This document shows positions 43,920-64,000 of a stretch of DNA of 64,000 nucleotides, one piece after another. Each line of letters begins with the position of its first letter. Within the stretch, counting starts at the first letter, position 1. The notes beneath the pieces are model-generated. The model was not told where the DNA came from. It did no database searches and saw only the letters and a program-made list of their open reading frames with translations. Source of the stretch: Thermoprotei archaeon (GTDB lineage: Archaea; Thermoproteota; Thermoprotei; Thermoproteales; B15-G16); NCBI GenBank assembly GCA_003649205.1, contig QMRC01000002.1, positions 96,001 to 160,000 of the forward strand. Direction: 5' to 3'. Both the position numbers and the translations under genes were made by a program.

Positions 43920-44336
43920 TCACTTAGCTTGTAGTTCCTGAAGTAGTTTCTCTGTGTTTACTGCTTCTGGATACCTCAGTAGGTCCTGATCTTCAGTAAC
44001 TAGCTTCATCCCGTGTACACGAGCCATGTAGAGGTAGGAGGCATCGTAGAAGGTCAGGTTCTCACTAACCGCTAGGTCCAAGACATTGTGGATCTCGGTC
44101 CCAAGTCTCAGTACACGTATGCTACCGAGGATGAACTCGAAGAGCTTAGCTACAGTAGCTAGGTCCCTGATTCTTCCTAGCCTGTACTCTTTCCACAGCG
44201 CATTACCCACCTCATAGATTGTCAGGTCAAGTACTGTAAATCTGTCTGCATACTCGAGGAATTTCTTCCTCAGTCTCAGTACTAGTGGGTAGATAGCTGA
44301 GGCATCGAGTAGGTACTGTGAAGACGTGTAGATCAC
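43920..44336 (-). CDS. vapC: VapC PIN-domain toxin
   Basis: LLDASA, YEVGNALWK, LTFYDASY, VTED. Confidence 0.9.
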   Translation of the reverse strand: MIYTSSQYLLDASAIYPLVLRLRKKFLEYADRFTVLDLTIYEVGNALWKEYRLGRIRDLATVAKLFEFILGSIRVLRLGTEIHNVLDLAVSENLTFYDASYLYMARVHGMKLVTEDQDLLRYPEAVNTEKLLQELQAK

Positions 44337-50639: not shown

Positions 50640-50870
50640 ATGAGTGAGGTACTAAGTATACGGATTCCTCGTGAACTTAAGAAGAAGATGGAAGAGCTGA
50701 AGAATTTCGTCGATTGGAAACAAGAAATCATCAAGTTCCTGGAAGAACGTGTCAAGTACTACGAGAAGCAGCGTGTCCTTAAGGAAGTGAATGAAATCAT
50801 CAAGAGACATCCAAGACTCCCTAAGGGTACTGCTATAGAGCTCGTGAGGGAAGATCGTGATAGTCATTGA
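50640..50870 (+). CDS. vapB: VapB antitoxin
   Basis: MSEVLSIRIPRELKKKM..VDWKQEI..LVREDRD. Confidence 0.88.
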   Translation: MSEVLSIRIPRELKKKMEELKNFVDWKQEIIKFLEERVKYYEKQRVLKEVNEIIKRHPRLPKGTAIELVREDRDSH

Positions 50871-51267
50871 TGCATCTGCACTAGCTAAGTACATCCTAGG
50901 AGAAGAGCAGTGGGAAACAGTAGCTCAGTACCTAGAGCAGGAGAGGGTACTCACACTAGGTATGGCATTAGTTGAGGTGCTAAACGTAGTGAGAAAAGCA
51001 GTACACATCCACAAACTACTCAGTAGGGATGTAGCACGTGAAAAGTACCTAGCACTAAAGAAACTCGTAGAGAATGAAGTCATAGAAGTGGAGAATGAGG
51101 TAAAGTACCTTGAAAAAGCCTTCAACCTTGCTCTCAGCACCGGGATTACCGTCTATGATGCACTATACATCGTACAGGCAATGGAACACAAAACACAACT
51201 ACTCACCAGCGACCGAGGACAAGCAGAAGTAGCAAAGAACCTCGGTGTAACAGCAGTAATCGTATAG
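50857..51267 (+). CDS. vapC: VapC PIN-domain toxin
   Basis: VIDASAL, ITVYDALY, LLTSD. Confidence 0.9.
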   Translation: MIVIDASALAKYILGEEQWETVAQYLEQERVLTLGMALVEVLNVVRKAVHIHKLLSRDVAREKYLALKKLVENEVIEVENEVKYLEKAFNLALSTGITVYDALYIVQAMEHKTQLLTSDRGQAEVAKNLGVTAVIV

Positions 51268-51856: not shown

Positions 51857-52285
51857 ATGGCTGTACTAGACTCATCATTCATCGTGAAACTAGTTATTCA
51901 CGAACCGTACAGCGAAGAAGCACTTAATCTCTTCAGGAAACTCACTACATCTGGAGAGAAGCTACGTACACCATGCATAGCTCTAGCTGAGGTCCTCAAT
52001 GCTATCTGGAAACATACTGTACTACTCAAAGATCTTGATCAGAGTCAGGTAGGGAATGTACTTAGGTACCTAACTTCTCTCTGGCGATTACTTCATGTTC
52101 ACCCAATCGATGAACTTGCTGAGAATGCTCTAAATGTAGCCACTAGGTTAGCAATTACAGTATACGACGCATTCTACATAGTCCTAGCACTACAGTACAG
52201 AGAAGTGCTCTACACCTTTGACAGAAAGTTAGCAGCTAAGGCGAAGGAGGTAGGTGTAGAGACTGTGGTACCATCTGAGTCTTAA
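51857..52285 (+). CDS. vapC: VapC PIN-domain toxin
   Basis: VLDSSF, EVLNAIWK, ITVYDAFY, YTFD. Confidence 0.9.
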   Translation: MAVLDSSFIVKLVIHEPYSEEALNLFRKLTTSGEKLRTPCIALAEVLNAIWKHTVLLKDLDQSQVGNVLRYLTSLWRLLHVHPIDELAENALNVATRLAITVYDAFYIVLALQYREVLYTFDRKLAAKAKEVGVETVVPSES

Positions 52286-56998: not shown

Positions 56999-58663
56999 TT
57001 ATAGCTGAAATACTGCTCCTTTATCTGCTGATGAGACTGCTCTCGAGTATCTGAGTAGGTATCCCTTACTGATCTTTGGTCTTGGTGGCTTCCACTCCTT
57101 TAGTCTCTTCTCGATTTCTTCAGGTGGTAGTAGTAGATCTAGCTTCTTGTTCTTAAGGTCAATCCTTATTCTATCTCCGTCGCGTACGATGGCTATTGGC
57201 CCACCTTCTGCTGCTTCAGGTGATACGTGTCCAATAGCTAGTCCTCTTGTTGCTCCTGAGAATCTACCGTCTGTTACTAGTGCTACGGATTCGGCTAATC
57301 CCATACCTGCTACTGCTGCTGTTGCTGCTAGCATCTCTCTCATGCCTGGTCCACCTTTGGGTCCTTCGTACCTTATCACAACCACATTACCTGGAACTAT
57401 CTTACCGTCTAGAATAGCCTTCACGGCATCTTCTTCGCAGTCGAAGACTTTCGCTGTTCCTTCGAAGTACCTTAGGTGCTCTGGTATTGCTCCTATCTTT
57501 ATCACTGCTCCTCTAGGTGCTAGTGTACCTTTGAGTATCATGATACCTCCTCTTGGACTCCACGGATTCTCTACACTCCTGATAACGTCTCTCCTCAGTA
57601 CCGTAACTCCTTCAAGTAGCTCTCTAACTGTCTTCATTGTTACTGTTAATCTATCCTTGTGTATGAGTCCTAGTTTATCGAGTTCCTTCATTACTGCTAG
57701 TACACCACCTGCTTCGTAGAGGTCTAGCACGAAGTATGGTCCTGCAGGACTCAACTTACATAGTGTCGGTACTTTTTCGCTTAGTTCGTCGAAGTCGTCT
57801 AGTGTTAGGTCTACTCCTGCTTCTCTAGCTATTGCTGGTAGGTGGAGTACTGTATTTGTTGATCCTCCTAGTGCTAGGTCAACAGCTATTGCATCTAGGA
57901 ATGCTTCTCTAGTCAGGATTTTGCTTGGTGTTATGCTCTTCTCGACTAGCTTGACTATGAGCATTCCTACGTACTTTGCTAGTCTTACTCTCTCTGCGTA
58001 GACTGCTGGTATGGTTCCGTTTCCTGGTGGTGCTACTCCAAGTGCTTCTGCTAGGCAGTTCATGGTGTTTGCTGTGAACATACCTGCACAAGATCCGCAG
58101 GTTGGGCATGCTCTCTCTTCTACCTCCTTCAGTTCCTCTAGTGTTATCTTACCTGTCTTGTACTCACCAATTGCTTCGTACGCATTCTTGAAGTCTATGA
58201 GCTTGCCCCTGTACTTACCTGGTAGCATTGGCCCTCCTGCTATGAGTATTGCTGGTATGTCTAGTCTTGCCATTGCCATTAGCATTCCTGGTATGATCTT
58301 GTCACATGAACCTACGAGGACTAGTCCGTCGAATCTATGTGCTTGTGCCATTATCTCTATGCTATCAGCAATTATCTCTCTGGAGGGTAGTGAGTACCTC
58401 ATTCCTTCATGACCCATAGCTATTCCATCACATACACCAATTACACCGAACTCGATGGGTGTTCCTCCTGCCATTCTAACTCCTGCTTTAACTGCTTCAG
58501 CTATCTGTCTTAGGTGTATGTGACCTGGAATTATCTCATTCCATGCACATGCAATGCCGATTAGTGGTCTGCGTATCTCTTCATCGATGTAGCCCATGGC
58601 CTTGAATAGTGATCTATGTGGGGTTCTCTCAATACCTTCCTTCACGATAGAGCTTCTCATCAT
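56999..58663 (-). CDS. ilvD: Dihydroxy-acid dehydratase
   Basis: [53 protein letters not shown]. Confidence 0.97.
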
Positions 58664-58796
58664 GTGGGAGCACCTCCAAGTACTAGTAGCGTATGTGATG
58701 AATTATTATTTTACGTGGTTGACATGTTCTAATTCGTGATTGCGAACCTCGTAAAAATAGAGGGTTGGTACTGAAGGTATTGGGTTTACGAGTGAC

Positions 58797-59006
58797 TTAT
58801 AGGTACCCTAGTGCTCTTAGTCTCTCCTTAATCTTCTCCTCTTCTTCAGGTGTGTAGCTTGGTTTCTCTTCCTCTACTAAGACCTGTTCTAGGACGTACT
58901 TGATGAATTCCTCAACTGATGTGAATGTTCCTGTTTCCTCTATGAATTTCTTGGCTTTCTCGTACAGCTCTTTAGGTATCTTCACACTTACGTACTCATC
59001 GCTCAT
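58797..59006 (-). CDS. CopG/RHH protein with KERLRALGYL tail
   Basis: YVSVKIPKELYEK..YTPEEEEKIKERLRALGYL. Confidence 0.85.
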   Translation of the reverse strand: MSDEYVSVKIPKELYEKAKKFIEETGTFTSVEEFIKYVLEQVLVEEEKPSYTPEEEEKIKERLRALGYL

Positions 59007-59055
59007 GTTGATTACCGTACCTCTCAACTGCGTACCAGTACTTAAGTATTCTAAC

Positions 59056-60420
59056 TTATGGTGGTTGGAGTTCGAGTATTTGCTCTAGGATCTTCTCTAC
59101 ATCCTCTAACTTACCTACTTCCTGTGGTGGTTTCTCACTACACATAAATATCGCGTACTCTCCGTGATTACTGTCATCAGGTCCCTTAGCGGTCTCTAGG
59201 CTGTATACTGTGTTGAATCCTACCATCTCATTCGCTCCGTAGTGTAGGTTGTCGAAGTACAGTGTTATGTCTGGCATGTATGTTGTCTTTGGTCCTGTGT
59301 ATGCGTTCCACTTGTAGTGTACTACGTTATTTAGCTTCCTACCGTTGGGGTCTCTGACCTTACTTAGTGCGTCAGCTACCTGTCTACATATGTCCTCGTA
59401 CTCACTCCTCTTTACTACTCCCTTTGGCTCCCTACCTTCGAGATTGATCCATACCTGACCTACGTAAGCACCCCAAGACCATGCGATTGTTCTCTCCCAG
59501 TCGATTAGCTTCTTCTCGTCTAGTTGCTTCAAGGTCATGGGTTTACTTGGTTTCTCCTTGAGCTTTAGGAATCTCTCCTGAATCAGTACCTCGTTTACGT
59601 TGATTCTAGCGTACATTCTCTTAGCTCCGTGATCGCTCATGACTATGACTACGGTGTCTCTAGGTAGCTGTGTCACTAGGTTACTGAGTTCCTCATCTAT
59701 CTTCTTGTAGAGGTTGAGTAGACCGTACTTCAGCTCTGGATCCTCTACGTACCTTGGGTGTTCTCTATCGAAGTACTTCCATAGTGTGTGCTGTGCTCTA
59801 TCTACTGACATGAGTACACAGATAGCTAGGTCCCAGTCTTTAGTCCTTAGTAGGTACTTCAAGATCTTGAAGTCGTGCTCAATCTTCTCAATTAGCTTCC
59901 TATACAGCTTCCTAGGTTCTATTCTCCTGTAGTCGTACACATCTATTATGTACTGATCCTCACCACCAACTACGTTGAGTACTTCCTCCTTTAGCTCTCT
60001 AGGCCATGTGAAGTCACTCGAGGTATCTGGTGTGAAGAAGTCTGCTACTACGTATCCCCTGATTCTAGGTGGTGGGTATGTGCCTGGTACGAAGCATAGT
60101 ACGGTCTTTAGTCCTCGTTTACTAGCTCTATTCCATATGAAGTCTATGTGCTCAACAACTCTGTAGCTGTAAAGTCTATAGTCTGTGTAGGTTCCTGGTA
60201 CTCGGTATCTTAGGTCGTAGAGTCCGAAGTATCCAGGGTTTAAGCCGCTGAAGGCTGTTAACCAGGCTGGTATAGTTATTGGTGGTACGGTGGATTGTAC
60301 TCTCCTGTAGTATGTCTCGTATAGTTGTCTCATTGTGGGGAGTTCCTTAATCCAGGACTCAATCTGTAGCGGTTCAGCACTGTCTATACCGAGGATGAGA
60401 ACTCTAGTCAATGCCCACAC
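59056..60420 (-). CDS. Alkaline-phosphatase superfamily (nucleotide pyrophosphatase/phosphodiesterase-type) protein
   Basis: LILGIDSA, STVPPITIPAW, DRAQH, MSDHG, SNHG. Confidence 0.9.
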   Translation of the reverse strand: MWALTRVLILGIDSAEPLQIESWIKELPTMRQLYETYYRRVQSTVPPITIPAWLTAFSGLNPGYFGLYDLRYRVPGTYTDYRLYSYRVVEHIDFIWNRASKRGLKTVLCFVPGTYPPPRIRGYVVADFFTPDTSSDFTWPRELKEEVLNVVGGEDQYIIDVYDYRRIEPRKLYRKLIEKIEHDFKILKYLLRTKDWDLAICVLMSVDRAQHTLWKYFDREHPRYVEDPELKYGLLNLYKKIDEELSNLVTQLPRDTVVIVMSDHGAKRMYARINVNEVLIQERFLKLKEKPSKPMTLKQLDEKKLIDWERTIAWSWGAYVGQVWINLEGREPKGVVKRSEYEDICRQVADALSKVRDPNGRKLNNVVHYKWNAYTGPKTTYMPDITLYFDNLHYGANEMVGFNTVYSLETAKGPDDSNHGEYAIFMCSEKPPQEVGKLEDVEKILEQILELQPP

Positions 60421-60427
60421 CTCCGAG

Positions 60428-60652
60428 CTAGTGTTTTCTGTTGACCCCCCAGGTTACTCGAGCCCAAATTCTCTCATGGAGGTAGTACAGTACTGTCTTC
60501 ACGAAATTTATGAGTATTCCGGTACCGATGGAGAACTCAGCTTTACCTGTCAGGACGTACAGTATAGCTATGGTAACGCAGGTAGCTAAGCACCTCCACG
60601 TTGCAGCTTTCACGAGGCTTCTAGTTCTTGACTCTAGTGCTACCTTCATCAC
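60428..60652 (-). CDS. DUF2061 membrane protein
   Basis: RSLVKAATWR..LYYLHERIW. Confidence 0.88.
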   Translation of the reverse strand: MMKVALESRTRSLVKAATWRCLATCVTIAILYVLTGKAEFSIGTGILINFVKTVLYYLHERIWARVTWGVNRKH

Positions 60653-61248
60653 TTAGTCACCACGTCACTAATTGATGCTCCGAGACTGAGTAGACGTCTG
60701 TAAATGTCTATATGCTCTAGGTACTCAGTGACTGGTGGTGGTAGCATCTTCTTCCAAGACTCATCACCTGATAGTATCTTTCTCCTGAGTTCGCTAGCAG
60801 ATACCTCAATGCACCTATGTACGTTTCGATGACCTGGTACAACTACGTAACCGAGTAAGTTGAACGCTATGACCATCGGTGGCTTATTGCCGATGAAAGC
60901 TGTATCGCTTGGATTCATGTTGAGTAACTTCTCAACTGTCCTAGCCCAGGTAATGAGTGGGTGATTACTGAAGATAACCTTGTCCTCTGTTGGTAGTGGT
61001 GTATCCTTACCGAAGTCAGGTACAGCTCTAATAACTACCCTTGAGAGATCTACATCAGCCCACTCAAGTAACCTCCTCCAGCACTCAATCCTCTCGTTGA
61101 CGGTTAGTGGATCCTTAGGACCTAGAGGTGTCTCCCTAACACCAATGATTACTGTACTAGCTATCTCAAGACCTAGCTTAACGCTAGCTAAGTGACCTTG
61201 ATGAGGTGGTTGAAATCTACCTATGTACACTGCTCTCCTAAACAACAT
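60649..61248 (-). CDS. HxGH (cytidylyltransferase/NMNAT-like) nucleotidyltransferase
   Basis: YIGRFQPPHQGH, VSASELR, WKKMLP. Confidence 0.85.
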   Translation of the reverse strand: MLFRRAVYIGRFQPPHQGHLASVKLGLEIASTVIIGVRETPLGPKDPLTVNERIECWRRLLEWADVDLSRVVIRAVPDFGKDTPLPTEDKVIFSNHPLITWARTVEKLLNMNPSDTAFIGNKPPMVIAFNLLGYVVVPGHRNVHRCIEVSASELRRKILSGDESWKKMLPPPVTEYLEHIDIYRRLLSLGASISDVVTK

Positions 61249-61296
61249 ACCTAATCGCAGTGAGTAGCTTATCAACCTAATATATCAGTTAAACAA

Positions 61297-61324
61297 CACG
61301 TATACATACGTGACATATCACGTA
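61297..61324. promoter_or_regulatory. Overlapping inverted repeats in a divergent promoter (candidate RHH operator)
   Basis: CACGTAT-AC-ATACGTG (61297-61312) and TACGTGA-CATA-TCACGTA (61307-61324). Confidence 0.55.
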
Positions 61325-61378
61325 CAGACTAATGACATTTAGAGAGTAATTTAAGTAGGGTTCTTAGGTATGTGATTA

Positions 61379-61612
61379 GTGATGAGTGAGGTATCAGAGA
61401 GCAAGAGAAGTAGGAAGAGAGATTACGTCAACATCTCCATACCTAGACCACTCTACGAGAGATTAGCTAAAGCACTTGAGGGTACAGGATTTAGAAGTCC
61501 AACTGAGTACATAATCTTCCTTATTAGGAAGTACCTACCGTTGCTAGAGTCAAAGGATGTGAAAAAGAGATTAATTGCACTAGGTTACCTACCTGAGGAG
61601 GAGATGACGTAG
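61379..61612 (+). CDS. CopG/RHH protein with KRLIALGYL motif
   Basis: YVNISIPRPLYERL..GFRSPTEYI..KKRLIALGYL. Confidence 0.85.
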   Translation: MMSEVSESKRSRKRDYVNISIPRPLYERLAKALEGTGFRSPTEYIIFLIRKYLPLLESKDVKKRLIALGYLPEEEMT

Positions 61613-61684
61613 TAGGTACCTCAGGGTAGTGATTTGCATTAACCTACGTAATTTACATTAACCTTCCTTAATACCGTAGAGTTA

Positions 61685-62158
61685 GTGAGGATCATGGTCA
61701 GTAGAAGGCTTATCACCATAGTTACCGTTATCGCAGTGGTTATTGCTGTTCTAGCTATTGCGATCTATCTCAAGTACCAAGCAGTGAGCAGTAGTGTAGA
61801 TAGTCTCGTTGTTGATGTTCGTGTAATGGGTCTCTTACCAACGGAATTTAGAGGTGGTAAGGCAGTTAAGTACAATATTAAACTGCTGATCTTAATCTAC
61901 TGTAGAGTAGGTAGTTTTAGAGCAAGAGCTCTATCTATAAAGCTGTACTCAGATAGTACAGTACTTTATGAAGAGCAATTGAAAGACATTGTAGTCACCA
62001 GAAGTCCCATACCAATAATCTCGACACTGAATGTGGATGCTAAGTACATAGAAGCGTTTCTAGGTAGAAAGCCAAGAGTTGTAGCTAGTGTAGTAGCTGA
62101 AGTCACGGTACTTGGTGTGAAGATTGGCGAGATTAAGCGCGTAATCGAGCTTAGATAG
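61685..62158 (+). CDS. Membrane-anchored hypothetical protein (LEA-like beta fold possible)
   Basis: N-terminal TM segment and beta-rich body. Confidence 0.6.
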   Translation: MRIMVSRRLITIVTVIAVVIAVLAIAIYLKYQAVSSSVDSLVVDVRVMGLLPTEFRGGKAVKYNIKLLILIYCRVGSFRARALSIKLYSDSTVLYEEQLKDIVVTRSPIPIISTLNVDAKYIEAFLGRKPRVVASVVAEVTVLGVKIGEIKRVIELR

Positions 62159-62285
62159 GAACTTCAATGAGATAACTTAGGGAAACAAGCTCCCAACCAA
62201 CACACGTAGAATGTGGCACTTATCGCAGATTAGTAGTAGAGTGTAGTCACCGTAGTTAACCATTGAATAGCTAGGTATGAGGATT

Positions 62286-62304
62286 GAGGAAAGGCTAATA
62301 AATA
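62286..62304 (+). promoter_or_regulatory. BRE/TATA promoter of tRNA-Pro
   Basis: Purine-rich GAGGAAAG followed by TAATAAATA, about 24-32 nt upstream of the tRNA. Confidence 0.65.
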
Positions 62305-62327
62305 TGAAGAGATAAGGTGACACGACA

Positions 62328-62420
62328 GGGGCCGTCGTCTAGCCTGGACTAGGATGCCAGCCTGGGGAGAAACCCCGCCCAGAACGCTGGTGAGCCCGGG
62401 TTCAAATCCCGGCGGCCCCA
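62328..62420 (+). tRNA. tRNA-Pro(GGG) with a 17-nt intron at 37/38 (62368-62384); CCA not encoded
   Basis: Acceptor GGGGCCG/CGGCCCC+A, anticodon arm CCAGC-CTGGGG^C-GCTGG, T arm CCGGG-TTCAAAT-CCCGG. Intron CCAG pairs with CTGG (BHB-type). Confidence 0.95.
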
Positions 62421-62455
62421 GGGGAGTACCGGGGTCAAACCCGGACTCCCCGCCA
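62421..62455 (+). ncRNA. tRNA-like minihelix (acceptor stem, T-arm-like hairpin, G discriminator, CCA)
   Basis: GGGGAGT-A-CCGGG-GTCAAA-CCCGG-ACTCCCC-G-CCA forms 12 Watson-Crick pairs and starts at the base right after the tRNA-Pro discriminator. Confidence 0.7.
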
Positions 62456-62472
62456 ACTAATCCTCTCCTATC

Positions 62473-63678
62473 TTAATCTCTCCCCAGAAAGTCAATAGCT
62501 TGCCTCACGTGTCGTGCTAAGTCATCGAGACCAAATACTATACTAAGCCGCTGTAGTCTTTCAAGCCACTCGACGTGATGTCTACTCGCCCGGAATTCAG
62601 CAAAATACTTCCTATACTTCTCTGAATGATAATAATGAACTCTTTCAGCTGGTACCTTAAGGAGGTTAACTGCTAGCTCTTTGAACGGCTCTACCTGTCC
62701 TAGTCCTACACATCTTACAATGACGTACTTCTTGCCACACTTCCTCCTAACTAAATATATTCTAACTCTCTCCTGAAGTAATTTTCTCAAGTCATCTCGA
62801 CTGAGCCCTACACCCTTGATAATCCTCAGTTTAGCATTTCGTCTTCTATGCCTCAACTCCATGAGATAGAGGAGACAGTTTTTGCGCATGTGCTCTATTG
62901 AGAATCTTATCCTGAAGTACCTACTTGGTCTCCAATTCTCTTTTATTTCACCTAGGGTGTAGTCTATGTACTTCATTTCTTTGAGTTTCTCTAAGACCTG
63001 TAGGATAGGTCGTAGCTTATGTTCACTACATCTAACGTAAATTGAGCAATGTACCCAGCCATGTTTATCCATGCGTACATTAACCGTGCCATCTCCGTCT
63101 ACTAGACCTGATAAGAATTCAGCAACTTCATAGTAGGTATTAGGAAAGCAAACAACTCCTCTTCTTAGGCAGGTCACGATAGTAGTAACTTCTGGATCTT
63201 TAACTCTTAGGTACAACATGGGTTTTACTTCGTGAGGTAACACGTGTATACATCCAAGTCTAACATAGAGTCTTGGGTATGTCTTCAGTAGTATTGCACA
63301 GAGCTCCTTGTCTGTACTAGCAAAGCGTATGTATGGTCCCAACACAGAACCATCGGTCAGTGCTAATCCCACTCTATACCATACGTTGCTCATTGAAGTA
63401 TTCTTTACAGTGATTTCCTCAACGAACTTACTGAATTCTCTCCTTAAGTACACTACCCTCTCATTGATGCAGTACCTAGCACTACGTGTCCTCGATCTAG
63501 CCACTATAACCAAAGAAGGTATATGTTTTATCTGCTCTCTCAGTTCTCTCGCTTTTTGCTTTAGTTGTTCTAGCTCTTCTTTGGTGAAGTATCTGTGTAT
63601 TAACTCCATTACTTTGCTATGTAGTTTCTCTACGAATTCATCTATTTCATCGTACTTGATGGTGATTCTCGATTTCAC
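62473..63678 (-). CDS. Free-standing two-motif LAGLIDADG endonuclease-like protein
   Basis: YRVGLALTDGSV and EFLSGLVDGDGTV in a basic protein. Confidence 0.75.
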   Translation of the reverse strand: MKSRITIKYDEIDEFVEKLHSKVMELIHRYFTKEELEQLKQKARELREQIKHIPSLVIVARSRTRSARYCINERVVYLRREFSKFVEEITVKNTSMSNVWYRVGLALTDGSVLGPYIRFASTDKELCAILLKTYPRLYVRLGCIHVLPHEVKPMLYLRVKDPEVTTIVTCLRRGVVCFPNTYYEVAEFLSGLVDGDGTVNVRMDKHGWVHCSIYVRCSEHKLRPILQVLEKLKEMKYIDYTLGEIKENWRPSRYFRIRFSIEHMRKNCLLYLMELRHRRRNAKLRIIKGVGLSRDDLRKLLQERVRIYLVRRKCGKKYVIVRCVGLGQVEPFKELAVNLLKVPAERVHYYHSEKYRKYFAEFRASRHHVEWLERLQRLSIVFGLDDLARHVRQAIDFLGRD

Positions 63679-63748
63679 GAATTGTAGTGAGTGCTATGGG
63701 TTATAGGGGTCTTACATTTGGTCGACTGTGTTGTTTCTCTCTATGTCT

Positions 63749-64000
63749 TTACTTCTTGCTACTAAGTACTTCACAGATCTTGATGACGAAGTCCTTTGCT
63801 ACTGGTGGCCCCCATGCTGTTACTACGTTATCATCTACGATCACTGCTTTTTCAATGTACTCTGCTCCACCTTCTCTAAGTATCTTGACTAGTGCTGGAT
63901 CTGGGTAGCAGGTTGCTCTTAATCCCTTTAAGATACCCGCCTTAGCTAGTATTGCTGGTGCTGCACAGATTGCTGCAACTACCTTACCTTTCTCGTGAAA
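63749..64000 (-). CDS. DJ-1/PfpI family protein, C-terminal part (runs off window)
   Basis: KGKVVAAICAAPAILAKAGILKGLRATCY..VIVDDNVVTAWGP. Confidence 0.9.
   Translation of the reverse strand, partial: FHEKGKVVAAICAAPAILAKAGILKGLRATCYPDPALVKILREGGAEYIEKAVIVDDNVVTAWGPPVAKDFVIKICEVLSSKK

What the first reader, a model, noticed from the sequence alone, without database searches (positions are those of the whole stretch)
62328..62455. CCA-terminated tRNA minihelix fused with zero spacer to the 3' end of tRNA-Pro(GGG)
Seen: tRNA-Pro ends at its discriminator A (62420) with no encoded CCA. The next base starts a 35-nt element, GGGGAGT-A-CCGGG-GTCAAA-CCCGG-ACTCCCC-G-CCA. It has a 7-bp acceptor stem stacked on a 5-bp stem with a T-loop-like 6-nt loop, a discriminator and CCA, and no D or anticodon arm. 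Its acceptor stem differs from that of tRNA-Pro (GGGGAGT/ACTCCCC versus GGGGCCG/CGGCCCC) yet stays fully paired, so it is not a simple att-site copy and looks structurally selected. Established: the 12-bp acceptor/T domain is the minimal substrate for RNase P, tRNase Z, the CCA-adding enzyme and several aminoacyl-tRNA synthetases. Inference: one cut at 62420/62421 would both mature the tRNA-Pro 3' end and release a stable mini-tRNA. It could be a processing signal, an aminoacyl carrier for non-ribosomal use, or a decoy for tRNA-targeting toxins, which are abundant in this window.
Basis: partly seen in the sequence, partly recalled or inferred. Interest (0 to 1): 0.85.

Follow-up and report, generated by a model that had tools for sequence, protein, structure and literature searches.

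The report
tRNA-like hairpin beside homing endonuclease genes
A 35-base hairpin shaped like the top half of a tRNA and ending in CCA is fused to the end of a proline tRNA gene, has a twin behind the histidine tRNA gene, and each copy lies beside a selfish-type DNA-cutting enzyme gene, so it looks like a conserved part of a mobile cassette more than a stand-alone mini-tRNA.

Summary
tRNA-Pro(GGG) spans 62328-62420, with a 17-nt intron. It ends at A73 and is followed with no spacer by a 35-nt hairpin (62421-62455): 7 bp + 5 bp, loop GTCAAA, then G-CCA.

- A second copy follows tRNA-His(GUG) on contig C14. Its 16-nt core and GCCA tail are identical. Its outer stem differs but is fully paired (4 compensatory pairs, 0 broken).
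- Forty of 44 tRNA genes here encode CCA directly after the discriminator. These two carry the hairpin between N73 and a CCA with an ordinary trailer.
- Each hairpin adjoins one of the genome's two sister LAGLIDADG homing-endonuclease-like genes (about 30% identical). This small family sits beside or inside tRNA genes in relatives.

The hairpin occurs only in this genus. It was absent from 118 other class genomes and from the viral and metagenome scans.

My best reading (0.42): it is a conserved tRNA-mimic spacer of a tRNA-end endonuclease cassette. RNase Z or RNase P would cut it off, maturing the tRNA and releasing a CCA-ended mini-RNA. No RNA data exist. A truly functional mini-tRNA remains possible (about 0.15-0.2).

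The parts
62328..62420 (+). tRNA-Pro(GGG) gene. Exon 1 is 62328-62367, the 17-nt intron at 37/38 is 62368-62384, and exon 2 is 62385-62420. It ends at discriminator A73 with no CCA of its own.
   Evidence: Rfam RF00005 at 48.1 bits. ARAGORN with introns finds the same span and a 17-nt intron. The anticodon and the bulge-helix-bulge fit are my hand parse. Contigs of other organisms continue from 62367 directly into the exon 2 sequence (table 7). The acceptor 3' strand plus A73 equals that of Pro(UGG) and Pro(CGG).
62421..62455 (+). Acceptor/T-arm-like hairpin ('minihelix'). Outer stem 62421-27/62445-51, bulged A 62428, inner stem 62429-33/62440-44, loop GTCAAA 62434-39, G 62452, CCA 62453-55.
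   Evidence: Fold of -26.3 kcal/mol, z -4.5. A paralogous copy lies at G000:C14:51-89 after tRNA-His. All 24 of 24 pair cells are paired and 4 of 7 outer pairs changed on both sides. Three independent assemblies bridge the junction.
62429..62444 (+). 16-nt core CCGGGGTCAAACCCGG, identical in both copies and in both species. It is a derivative of the tRNA T arm.
   Evidence: Two places in the own genome allowing 2 substitutions. Found only in G000 and G001 among the 62 genomes of the order.
62456..62472 (+). Pyrimidine-rich trailer after the hairpin's CCA. It is of the same kind as the trailers that follow the encoded CCA of ordinary tRNA genes in this genome.
   Evidence: Comparison by eye with the 60-nt trailers listed.
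62473..63678 (-). Gene for a 401-aa LAGLIDADG homing-endonuclease-like protein with two motifs. It converges on the tRNA, and its stop codon lies 18 nt after the hairpin's CCA.
   Evidence: Pfam LAGLIDADG_3, E 1.4e-6. Both motifs and their acidic residues are invariant in the 5-sequence family alignment. AlphaFold2 model pLDDT 91, pTM 0.90. Best Foldseek match is the archaeal intron-encoded I-Tsp061I (2dch, E 5e-7), and the listed matches at E<=0.001 are LAGLIDADG enzymes. The paralogue beside the His hairpin is at C14:291-1490.

Best explanation
The hairpin is one of two paralogous copies of a tRNA-derived hairpin (acceptor stem plus T arm). It sits exactly between the discriminator base and a 'G-CCA plus ordinary trailer' at two single-copy tRNA genes: Pro-GGG in the window and His-GUG on contig C14.

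Each copy adjoins one of the genome's only two genes for a sister pair of LAGLIDADG homing-endonuclease-like proteins. I read the hairpin as a conserved component of this tRNA-end-associated endonuclease cassette. It would be a tRNA-mimicking spacer that is removed at the RNA level by ordinary tRNA end-processing.

**Proposed processing**
1. RNase Z cuts after N73 of the tRNA, or RNase P cuts at the 5' side of the hairpin.
2. The CCA-adding enzyme then completes the tRNA.
3. RNase Z cuts after the hairpin's own CCA.

The interrupted gene would therefore still give a working tRNA, and a 35-nt (Pro) or 39-nt (His) CCA-ended hairpin RNA would be released. This would be comparable to the way an intron or intein makes an endonuclease-linked insertion harmless, but through end-processing instead of splicing. 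At the DNA level the insertion may also split the endonuclease's target and protect the carrier allele. That part is speculative.

**Shown:** the anatomy, the second copy, the co-varying stem, the linkage to the endonuclease genes, the presence of the processing enzymes, and the restriction to one genus.

**Inferred:** transcription through the hairpin, the cuts, endonuclease activity, cassette mobility, and any benefit.
For: 1. **Linkage.** The genome has two hairpins and two genes of this protein family. They lie at the same two of 44 tRNA genes.
2. **The family is tied to tRNA genes.** Of 13 distinct loci found in 120 class genomes, 11 have a tRNA gene or a tRNA 3' end within the fetched +/-1.5 kb.
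   - One gene stops 10 nt after the CCA of tRNA-Asp.
   - Three follow tRNA-His-type 3' ends on the same strand.
   - One lies inside a roughly 763-nt intron at 37/38 of a tRNA.
3. **The neighbour is a LAGLIDADG enzyme by motif and by fold**.
4. **Position.** Forty of 44 tRNA genes encode CCA right after N73. In these two genes the hairpin plus G stands before a CCA that is followed by a normal-looking trailer.
5. **Constraint.** The two endonucleases are sisters (support 100/98). Their terminal branches are 1.21 changes per site each, and they are about 30% identical. Outside the tRNA T arm and hairpin, the two cassettes share no other DNA match better than E 0.01. Yet the 16-nt core and GCCA are identical, and the outer stem keeps 24 of 24 cells paired with 4 compensatory pairs.
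6. **Processing is feasible.** RNase Z (321 bits), the CCA-adding enzyme (148 bits) and RNase P RNA type A (112 bits) are all present. The published behaviour of archaeal RNase Z fits (abstract of PMC7479834). Both tRNAs appear to be single-copy, so they must still be matured.
Against: - There are no RNA data of any kind.
- Endonuclease activity and mobility are untested, and no hairpin-free allele of this genus was seen.
- The endonuclease gene is antisense and 18 nt from the hairpin at Pro. At His it is sense and about 200 nt away. The two are therefore not a fixed-orientation unit.
- Relatives that carry family members at tRNA-Asp and tRNA-His have no hairpin, so the endonuclease does not need it.
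- RNase Z alone could remove any trailer. A mere spacer does not explain why the core sequence, and not only the pairing, is conserved. That points to specific recognition.
- The wider idea that an interruption goes with the endonuclease failed in genus g8. The tRNA-His intron there is also present in G022, which has no endonuclease gene within 1.5 kb downstream.
- There are only two distinct hairpin sequences. The two species are about 98% identical across the 181-nt segment compared, so species comparison adds nothing.
Confidence: 0.42

Rival explanations
1. The hairpins are free-standing functional mini-tRNAs. After release they would be stable CCA-ended RNAs that act on their own, for example as aminoacyl carriers, or as ligands or decoys for tRNA-binding proteins. 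The endonuclease genes would be neighbours only because both kinds of element like tRNA loci.
For: The conservation pattern matches what two different tRNA species show: the same T arm, different but paired acceptor stems, and the same NCCA end. The core is kept while the neighbouring proteins diverged to about 30% identity. The His-linked copy has an 8-bp stem, like the tRNA-His acceptor stem with its G-1:C73 pair. The processing enzymes are present. From recall and from passages of PMC4033280: 12-bp acceptor/T minihelices are substrates for several synthetases.
Against: The element is restricted to one genus and two loci. The loop has 6 nt with G in place of U54, so the canonical T-loop is not kept. 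The extra G before CCA in the His copy does not fit tRNA-His identity. Co-location with both endonuclease genes at the same 2 of 44 tRNA genes is hard to credit as coincidence. There is no RNA evidence and no candidate partner enzyme.
Confidence: 0.17
2. The hairpins are neutral relics, either scars of break repair or leftovers of degenerate tRNA duplicates at endonuclease-cut tRNA ends. Fold-back priming at the T-arm inverted repeat would copy the acceptor 3' strand into a complementary 5' arm. That would give perfect pairing without any selection.
For: All 24 pair cells are Watson-Crick with no G-U, as DNA-level palindrome formation predicts. A T arm joined directly to the acceptor 3' strand is what a fold-back at the T arm would produce (inference). 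The hairpins sit next to enzymes that make double-strand breaks. They are absent from relatives.
Against: Both copies share the same altered loop (GTCAAA) but have unrelated outer stems. Independent scars would not share the loop, and a copied scar would share the stems. The core and GCCA are unchanged, whereas outside the tRNA T arm and hairpin the two cassettes share no other DNA match better than E 0.01. The bulges (A, or CAC) are asymmetric. No tRNA with either acceptor stem exists in this genome as a source.
Confidence: 0.18
3. The hairpin is a host 3'-end signal unrelated to the endonuclease. It would be a structured trailer that stops transcription or directs 3' processing of these two tRNAs, and at Pro would also end the convergent mRNA.
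For: It is a strong GC hairpin directly at the tRNA end. At Pro it lies between convergent genes.
Against: No T run follows it. The 40 tRNA genes with an encoded CCA tail and tRNA-Arg(TCG) do without one. At His the downstream gene is on the same strand and about 200 nt away. This reading explains neither the tRNA-like CCA end nor the link to both endonuclease genes.
Confidence: 0.08
4. The element is an assembly artefact: a collapsed or chimeric join at a tRNA.
For: This assembly does contain a fold-back artefact hinged at the tRNA-His end. Contig C3 is a perfect palindrome.
Against: Contigs from three runs in three studies bridge the Pro junction. G001:C174 and L081 carry the same sequence. 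The intact tRNA-His plus hairpin plus endonuclease gene lies inside the G001:C7 contig, recorded as 19,894 bases.
Confidence: 0.01

Closest known systems
Synthetic tRNA acceptor/T-psi-C minihelices (12-bp 'top half' with NCCA), used as minimal substrates for synthetases, RNase P, RNase Z and the CCA-adding enzyme. This rests on passages of PMC4033280, the abstract of PMC7479834, and otherwise on recall.
   Same: A 7-bp stem stacked on a 5-bp stem, a single unpaired base, then CCA at the 3' end. There is no D arm and no anticodon arm.
   Different: This one is encoded in a genome and fused to a full tRNA. It has a 1-nt or 3-nt bulge between the stems and a 6-nt loop that lacks U54. No processing or charging has been shown.
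Zero-spacer tRNA-like processing modules: tandem tRNAs, mitochondrial 'tRNA punctuation', and tRNA-like ends such as mascRNA cut out by RNase P and RNase Z
   Same: A tRNA-shaped element marks where the tRNA processing enzymes cut a longer transcript. The cut that frees one RNA also makes the end of its neighbour.
   Different: Here the module is only the top half of a tRNA. It lies downstream of a true tRNA between N73 and an encoded CCA, and it is tied to endonuclease genes.
Archaeal bulge-helix-bulge introns that carry LAGLIDADG homing endonuclease genes, for example the rRNA-intron enzyme I-Tsp061I (PDB 2dch), and Thermoproteales 16S introns (passages of PMC4496867).
   Same: The neighbouring protein's best structural match is I-Tsp061I. 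One family member lies inside a tRNA intron closed by a long GC helix. An insertion in a stable-RNA gene is made harmless at the RNA level.
   Different: The hairpin has no bulge-helix-bulge motif at its borders (checked by hand). It does not contain the endonuclease gene, and it would be removed by end-processing and not by splicing.
Free-standing homing endonucleases that work with a separate protective insertion
   Same: An endonuclease gene lies beside a conserved gene, not inside it. A short separate insertion in that gene could break the target site.
   Different: Target, cleavage and protection are all untested here. Relatives carry the endonuclease gene without a hairpin.
Partial tRNA 3'-end duplicates at borders of integrated archaeal elements (abstract of PMC3293823). 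A likely example in this genome is the tRNA-Met 3' part plus flank, duplicated on C4.
   Same: tRNA-derived sequence lies directly at a tRNA gene next to foreign-looking DNA.
   Different: The hairpin is not a copy of the adjacent tRNA's end. It has a 5' arm that an att repeat would lack. No integrase is present.

Membership tests
tRNA (Rfam RF00005) | Cloverleaf with D arm and anticodon arm | tested here: not met
   The Rfam match ends at 62420, and nothing matches 62421-62455 even at E<=1. ARAGORN gives no call there.
Acceptor/T-arm minihelix (operational definition) | 7-bp acceptor-like stem plus 5-bp T-like stem, then one unpaired base and CCA | tested here: met
   Fold. The His copy has 8 + 5 bp and G-CCA.
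Acceptor/T-arm minihelix (operational definition) | Canonical 7-nt T loop (U54, psi55, C56 ... A58) and uninterrupted coaxial stack | tested here: not met
   The loop is GTCAAA (6 nt, with G where U54 would be). A bulge (A, or CAC) sits between the stems on the 5' side.
Acceptor/T-arm minihelix (operational definition) | Exists as a discrete RNA processed by RNase P or RNase Z and accepted by the CCA-adding enzyme or a synthetase | not testable with these tools
   No RNA run is listed for this sequence. Only the genes for the enzymes are shown.
Archaeal bulge-helix-bulge intron | Two 3-nt bulges around a 4-bp helix spanning both borders | tested here: not met
   Checked by hand in both possible topologies for borders 73/74 at Pro and at His, and no 4-bp central helix can form. 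The 17-nt intron at 37/38 of the same tRNA does fit the motif (sequence).
att-site repeat of an integrated element | Direct repeat of the adjacent tRNA's own 3' part, with an integrase gene nearby | tested here: not met
   The acceptor strand differs (ACTCCCC against CGGCCCC), and a complementary 5' arm is present. The neighbouring ORFs give only a LAGLIDADG hit and metabolic enzymes.
Intrinsic terminator | GC-rich hairpin followed by a run of T | tested here: not met
   The hairpin is followed by GCCAACTAATCC, with no T run.
LAGLIDADG homing endonuclease (the neighbouring gene) | Two LAGLIDADG motifs with conserved acidic residues, and the two-domain alpha-beta-beta-alpha-beta-beta-alpha fold | tested here: met
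   Pfam PF14528. D109 and D196 are invariant in the 5-sequence alignment; in the 39-sequence alignment D196 is invariant and D109 nearly so. Model pLDDT 91. Foldseek top match 2dch, and the listed matches at E<=0.001 are LAGLIDADG enzymes.
LAGLIDADG homing endonuclease (the neighbouring gene) | Site-specific DNA cleavage and homing into empty alleles | not testable with these tools
   Only indirect signs exist. The family is patchy, found in 8 of 120 class genomes. Presence varies at tRNA-His within genus g8: G038 and G030 have the gene, and G022 has none within 1.5 kb downstream.

The most novel reading that the evidence does not exclude
The two hairpins are true, naturally encoded mini-tRNAs. 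They would be cut out of tRNA precursors as 35-nt and 39-nt CCA-ended acceptor/T-arm helices and kept under tRNA-like selection, with a fixed T arm, a free but paired acceptor stem and a fixed NCCA. They would have a function of their own, either as chargeable carriers or as RNA partners of the adjoining LAGLIDADG proteins. That would make them the first natural counterpart of the laboratory 'minihelix', and a new kind of tRNA-end mobile module.
Probability: 0.18. Interest if true: 0.9.

Novelty: new variant of a known kind. Interest (0 to 1): 0.62.

Why it matters
Acceptor/T-arm minihelices with CCA are central to ideas on how tRNA arose and on what the processing enzymes and synthetases really recognise. 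So far they are laboratory constructs. Here a genome encodes two of them at the exact processing site of two essential tRNAs, with a stem that co-varies. They are next to a small family of homing-endonuclease genes that live beside or inside tRNA genes.

If the proposed processing is real, selfish DNA would have a new way to sit in a tRNA gene without harming it, using end-processing where introns use splicing. It would also give a natural substrate for testing minimal recognition by archaeal RNase P, RNase Z and the CCA-adding enzyme. If the hairpin is only a scar, it is still a clear marker of endonuclease activity at tRNA ends.

Tried and rejected
- **Bulge-helix-bulge intron at 73/74.** Checked by hand in both topologies for both copies. 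No central helix can form, so this is rejected.
- **att repeat or integrase.** Rejected.
- **Full tRNA with the same acceptor stem.** Searched in the own genome with a 10-400 nt gap between the two strands. Only the hairpins themselves were found, 1 place each.
- **Pattern search for the hairpin's 3' end in 62 genomes at up to 2 mismatches.** Hit numbers resembled the reversed-pattern control and showed no tRNA with that end. Uninformative.
- **Core motif in viral contigs.** Twenty-five stretches matched. None has flanking arms plus GCCA or follows a tRNA. The protein family gave no viral relative.
- **Core plus N7-8 plus GCCA in metagenome contigs.** Eleven stretches matched. Ten are unrelated GC-rich sequence and one (L081) is the same Pro locus.
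- **Covariance model R1.** It was built from the Pro hairpin only, because the MAFFT alignment of the two copies (A2) did not respect the structure. It recovers the His copy at 26.9 bits as a positive control. In the order search, I read 14 of the 17 places outside genus g1. Ten overlap ordinary tRNA genes, mostly the variable arm, T arm and acceptor of class II tRNAs. Four lie in unrelated sequence. None starts after a discriminator. The three places I did not read have the same score as two of the tRNA hits. The class search over 120 genomes added nothing.
- **Protein searches.** The word-index search found only the sister-species orthologue. The GTDB contig scan gave 5 loci: the four of G001, G038 and G020, and one weak bacterial hit.
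- **RNA evidence.** No RNA holder is listed for this sequence.
- **Rfam type-T RNase P (RF02357).** No match, but its control rang in no genome, so this says nothing.
- **Does an interruption of the tRNA go with the endonuclease gene in genus g8?** Not supported.
- **Empty-site allele of this genus.** Not found. Contigs that leave the window sequence at 62420 and run on with CCA also differ upstream, so they belong to other organisms (table 7).
Supplementary files of papers were not consulted.
- **Search for prior descriptions.** Four literature searches listed no paper on a natural tRNA-fused minihelix or on tRNA-linked LAGLIDADG genes in Thermoproteales. I judged this from titles and abstract starts only.
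Full report
**1. The observation.**
The window is G000:C2:96001-160000, from a 2.07-Mb, 31-contig assembly with 43% G+C. Record titles of the sister genome call it an uncultured Thermoproteales archaeon.

Rfam finds a complete tRNA at 62328-62420 (48.1 bits). Nothing else matches in 58000-64000 at E<=1. Default ARAGORN misses it because of a 17-nt intron. With introns allowed it finds the same span but names it Ser(gga).

Parsed by hand, exon 1 ends at G37 (62367), the intron is 62368-62384, and the loop reads CUGGGGC, giving anticodon GGG. The intron fits a bulge-helix-bulge motif. Contigs of other organisms continue from 62367 straight into exon 2 (table 7). The acceptor 3' strand plus A73 equals that of Pro(UGG) and Pro(CGG) in this genome. 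A second ARAGORN 'Pro(ggg)' call on C1 has the 3' end of the Val genes and a CAC loop, so the window gene is the only Pro(GGG).

It folds at -26.3 kcal/mol with z -4.5 and stays independent of the tRNA fold.

**2. It is not chance and not an artefact.**
I folded the 40 nt after the discriminator of 44 tRNA gene calls. Only Pro(GGG) (-26.3) and His (-26.4) fold strongly, and the other 42 average -2.0. Contigs of three runs from three studies bridge the junction without gaps. G001:C174 and metagenome contig L081 carry the same sequence.

**3. A second copy.**
A DNA search showed that window 62390-62466 matches G000:C14:20-98 at 80%. C14 starts inside tRNA-His(GUG). Directly after its discriminator C comes GGTTGGGG-CAC-CCGGG-GTCAAA-CCCGG-CCCCAACC-G-CCA.

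The sister genome has the intact tRNA-His plus hairpin inside the G001:C7 contig, recorded as 19,894 bases. The break in G000 is an assembly fault. Contig C3 is a perfect 291,428-base palindrome hinged at the tRNA-His end.

The 16-nt core and the GCCA tail are identical in the two copies, and the outer stems differ. Aligned to one model, 24 of 24 pair cells are paired. Four of 7 outer pairs changed on both sides, none changed on one side only, and 23 of 500 shuffles do as well. With only two distinct sequences this is suggestive, not proof. All pairs are Watson-Crick.

**4. Where it sits.**
I kept 45 of 50 ARAGORN calls. I dropped three calls with predicted introns over 100 nt and two calls in the duplicate half of C3. 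The two His calls at the hinge are one gene, which leaves 44 genes.

Forty of the 44 encode CCA directly after the discriminator. The exceptions are Pro(GGG), His, Arg(TCG) and one doubtful call on C12. In Pro and His, the hairpin plus one G stands before a CCA that is followed by a pyrimidine-rich trailer like those of the other tRNA genes.

The element can therefore be read in two ways. It may be a 32-nt or 36-nt insertion between N73 and CCA. Or it may be a module that brings its own CCA and trailer. I could not decide between these.

In 21 related tRNA-Pro loci where I could find the 3' end (of 28 fetched), 8 have CCA, 13 do not, and by eye none has a hairpin.

**5. The neighbours.**
The ORF at 62473-63678 (minus strand, 401 aa) has a LAGLIDADG_3 hit. 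tblastn finds exactly one paralogue in the genome, at C14:291-1490, about 200 nt downstream of the His hairpin on the same strand.

Both LAGLIDADG motifs and their acidic residues are invariant in the 5-sequence alignment. In the 39-sequence alignment D196 is invariant and D109 nearly so. An AlphaFold2 model is confident (pLDDT 91, pTM 0.90). Its best PDB match is the archaeal intron-encoded I-Tsp061I (2dch, E 5e-7), and the listed matches at E<=0.001 are LAGLIDADG enzymes. By sequence the family is remote from solved enzymes (best E 0.004).

The family is tiny. It has 81 hits at E<=1e-3 and 5 at E<=1e-30 among 1.84 billion representatives, and it occurs in 8 of 120 genomes of the class.

Of 13 distinct loci, 11 have a tRNA gene or tRNA 3' end within the fetched flanks.
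- In G038, tRNA-Asp is followed 10 nt after its CCA by a convergent family gene.
- In G038, G030 and G020, tRNA-His-type ends are followed by a gene on the same strand.
- In G043, the ORF lies inside a roughly 763-nt intron at 37/38 of a tRNA. By my parse this is Ala-UGC with G3:U70, although ARAGORN says Arg. The intron is closed by a 17-bp GC helix.

None of these relatives has a hairpin.

The two g1 proteins are sisters (support 100/98), with terminal branches of 1.21 changes per site each, and are about 30% identical. Apart from the tRNA T arm plus hairpin, the two cassettes share no other DNA match better than E 0.01.

**6. Distribution.**
The core at up to 1 mismatch occurs in 5 of 62 genomes of the order. 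Only the four places in G000 and G001 are hairpins. Model R1 finds nothing else real in 62 order genomes or 120 class genomes. The viral and metagenome scans add only the same locus. The two species are about 98% identical across the 181-nt segment compared, so they give no independent test.

**7. How it most likely works.**
The genome has RNase Z above the curated cut-off, the archaeal CCA-adding enzyme and a full-length type-A RNase P RNA.

I read the abstract of PMC7479834. It reports that two archaeal RNase Z enzymes cut after the discriminator in CCA-less precursors and after CCA in CCA-bearing ones. They need the acceptor stem but not the D, T or anticodon arm. A section heading adds that they require a matured 5' end.

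Applied here, by inference only:
1. A cut at 62420/62421 gives tRNA-Pro a 3' end ready for CCA addition and gives the hairpin its 5' end.
2. A cut after 62455 then frees a 35-nt CCA-ended RNA.
3. RNase P acting on the hairpin would make the first cut equally well.

Both tRNAs appear to be single-copy, so some such route must operate.

The hairpin core has stayed unchanged while its neighbouring genes diverged almost to saturation, and the stem changed only by paired substitutions. So I think it is under constraint and not a fresh scar. Its exclusive co-location with both endonuclease genes makes it most likely a part of that cassette. In this reading it is a tRNA-mimic spacer, made harmless by end-processing, that may also split the enzyme's DNA target.

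I give this 0.42. The rivals are a free functional mini-tRNA (0.17), a neutral repair relic (0.18), a host 3'-end signal (0.08) and an artefact (0.01). The remainder is unknown.

**8. What speaks against my reading.**
- There is no RNA evidence.
- The orientation and distance of the endonuclease gene differ between the two loci.
- Relatives have the gene without a hairpin.
- A mere spacer does not explain conservation of the core sequence.
- The tRNA-His intron in genus g8 is present whether or not the endonuclease gene is there, so 'interruption goes with endonuclease' is not a general rule.

**9. Comparison with known things.**
The shape is that of the laboratory minihelix, but the T loop is not canonical. 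The hairpin is not a tRNA by Rfam and not a bulge-helix-bulge intron. It is not an att repeat, and it is not a terminator.

The closest functional analogies are tRNA-like processing modules and endonuclease-bearing archaeal introns. Four literature searches listed nothing that describes such an element (titles and abstract starts only).

I rate it a new variant of a known kind, with interest 0.62.

Noticed in passing
G000:C3:1-291428 (hinge near 145714; not in the window): Contig C3 is a perfect palindrome. Its first half equals the reverse complement of its second half with 0 mismatches. It folds back at the 3' end of tRNA-His, and the true continuation is contig C14. About 146 kb of the assembly is therefore duplicated by artefact. 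RNase P RNA, tRNA-Glu and tRNA-Phe appear twice for this reason.
   Followed up: yes
L137 (G043:C218) about 1312-2171: A LAGLIDADG ORF of the same family lies inside a roughly 763-nt intron at position 37/38 of a tRNA gene. By my parse the tRNA is Ala-UGC with G3:U70, although ARAGORN calls it Arg. The intron is closed by a 17-bp GC helix. A homing-endonuclease-bearing bulge-helix-bulge intron in a tRNA gene seems unusual.
   Followed up: partly
L141 (G038:C121), L136 (G030:C103), L179 (G022:C9): Within genus g8 the tRNA-His gene, which has a 28-nt intron, is followed by a family endonuclease gene in G038 and G030. G022 has none within 1.5 kb downstream. This is a presence/absence difference at one locus.
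   Followed up: partly
G000:C1:28701-29200 and G000:C4:26276-26359 (also C12:49876-49970): The 3' part of tRNA-Met(CAU) plus about 50 nt of its downstream flank is repeated on C4 at 98.8% identity over 84 nt, and more weakly on C12. This looks like att-type partial tRNA repeats of integrated elements.
   Followed up: partly
G000:C1:229840-229958 (minus strand): ARAGORN calls this tRNA 'Pro(ggg)', but it has the 3' end of the Val genes and a CUCACGA loop. It is probably tRNA-Val(CAC) with two introns.
   Followed up: partly
window 43968-44315 (-), 50860-51237 (+), 51863-52246 (+): Three of the genome's seven PIN-domain (VapC-like) genes lie in the window, 10-18 kb from the tRNA.
   Followed up: no
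G000:C2:249765-249800 (outside the window): The trailer of tRNA-Pro(CGG), after its encoded CCA, folds into a moderately stable hairpin (-15.3 kcal/mol). This is the third strongest of 44 trailers, and it is unrelated in sequence to the minihelix.
   Followed up: no
G001:C2:190-783: The sister genome has a third, more distant member of the LAGLIDADG family near a contig end. No tRNA lies in the 2.3 kb held, and no counterpart appeared in G000 at E<=1e-6.
   Followed up: no
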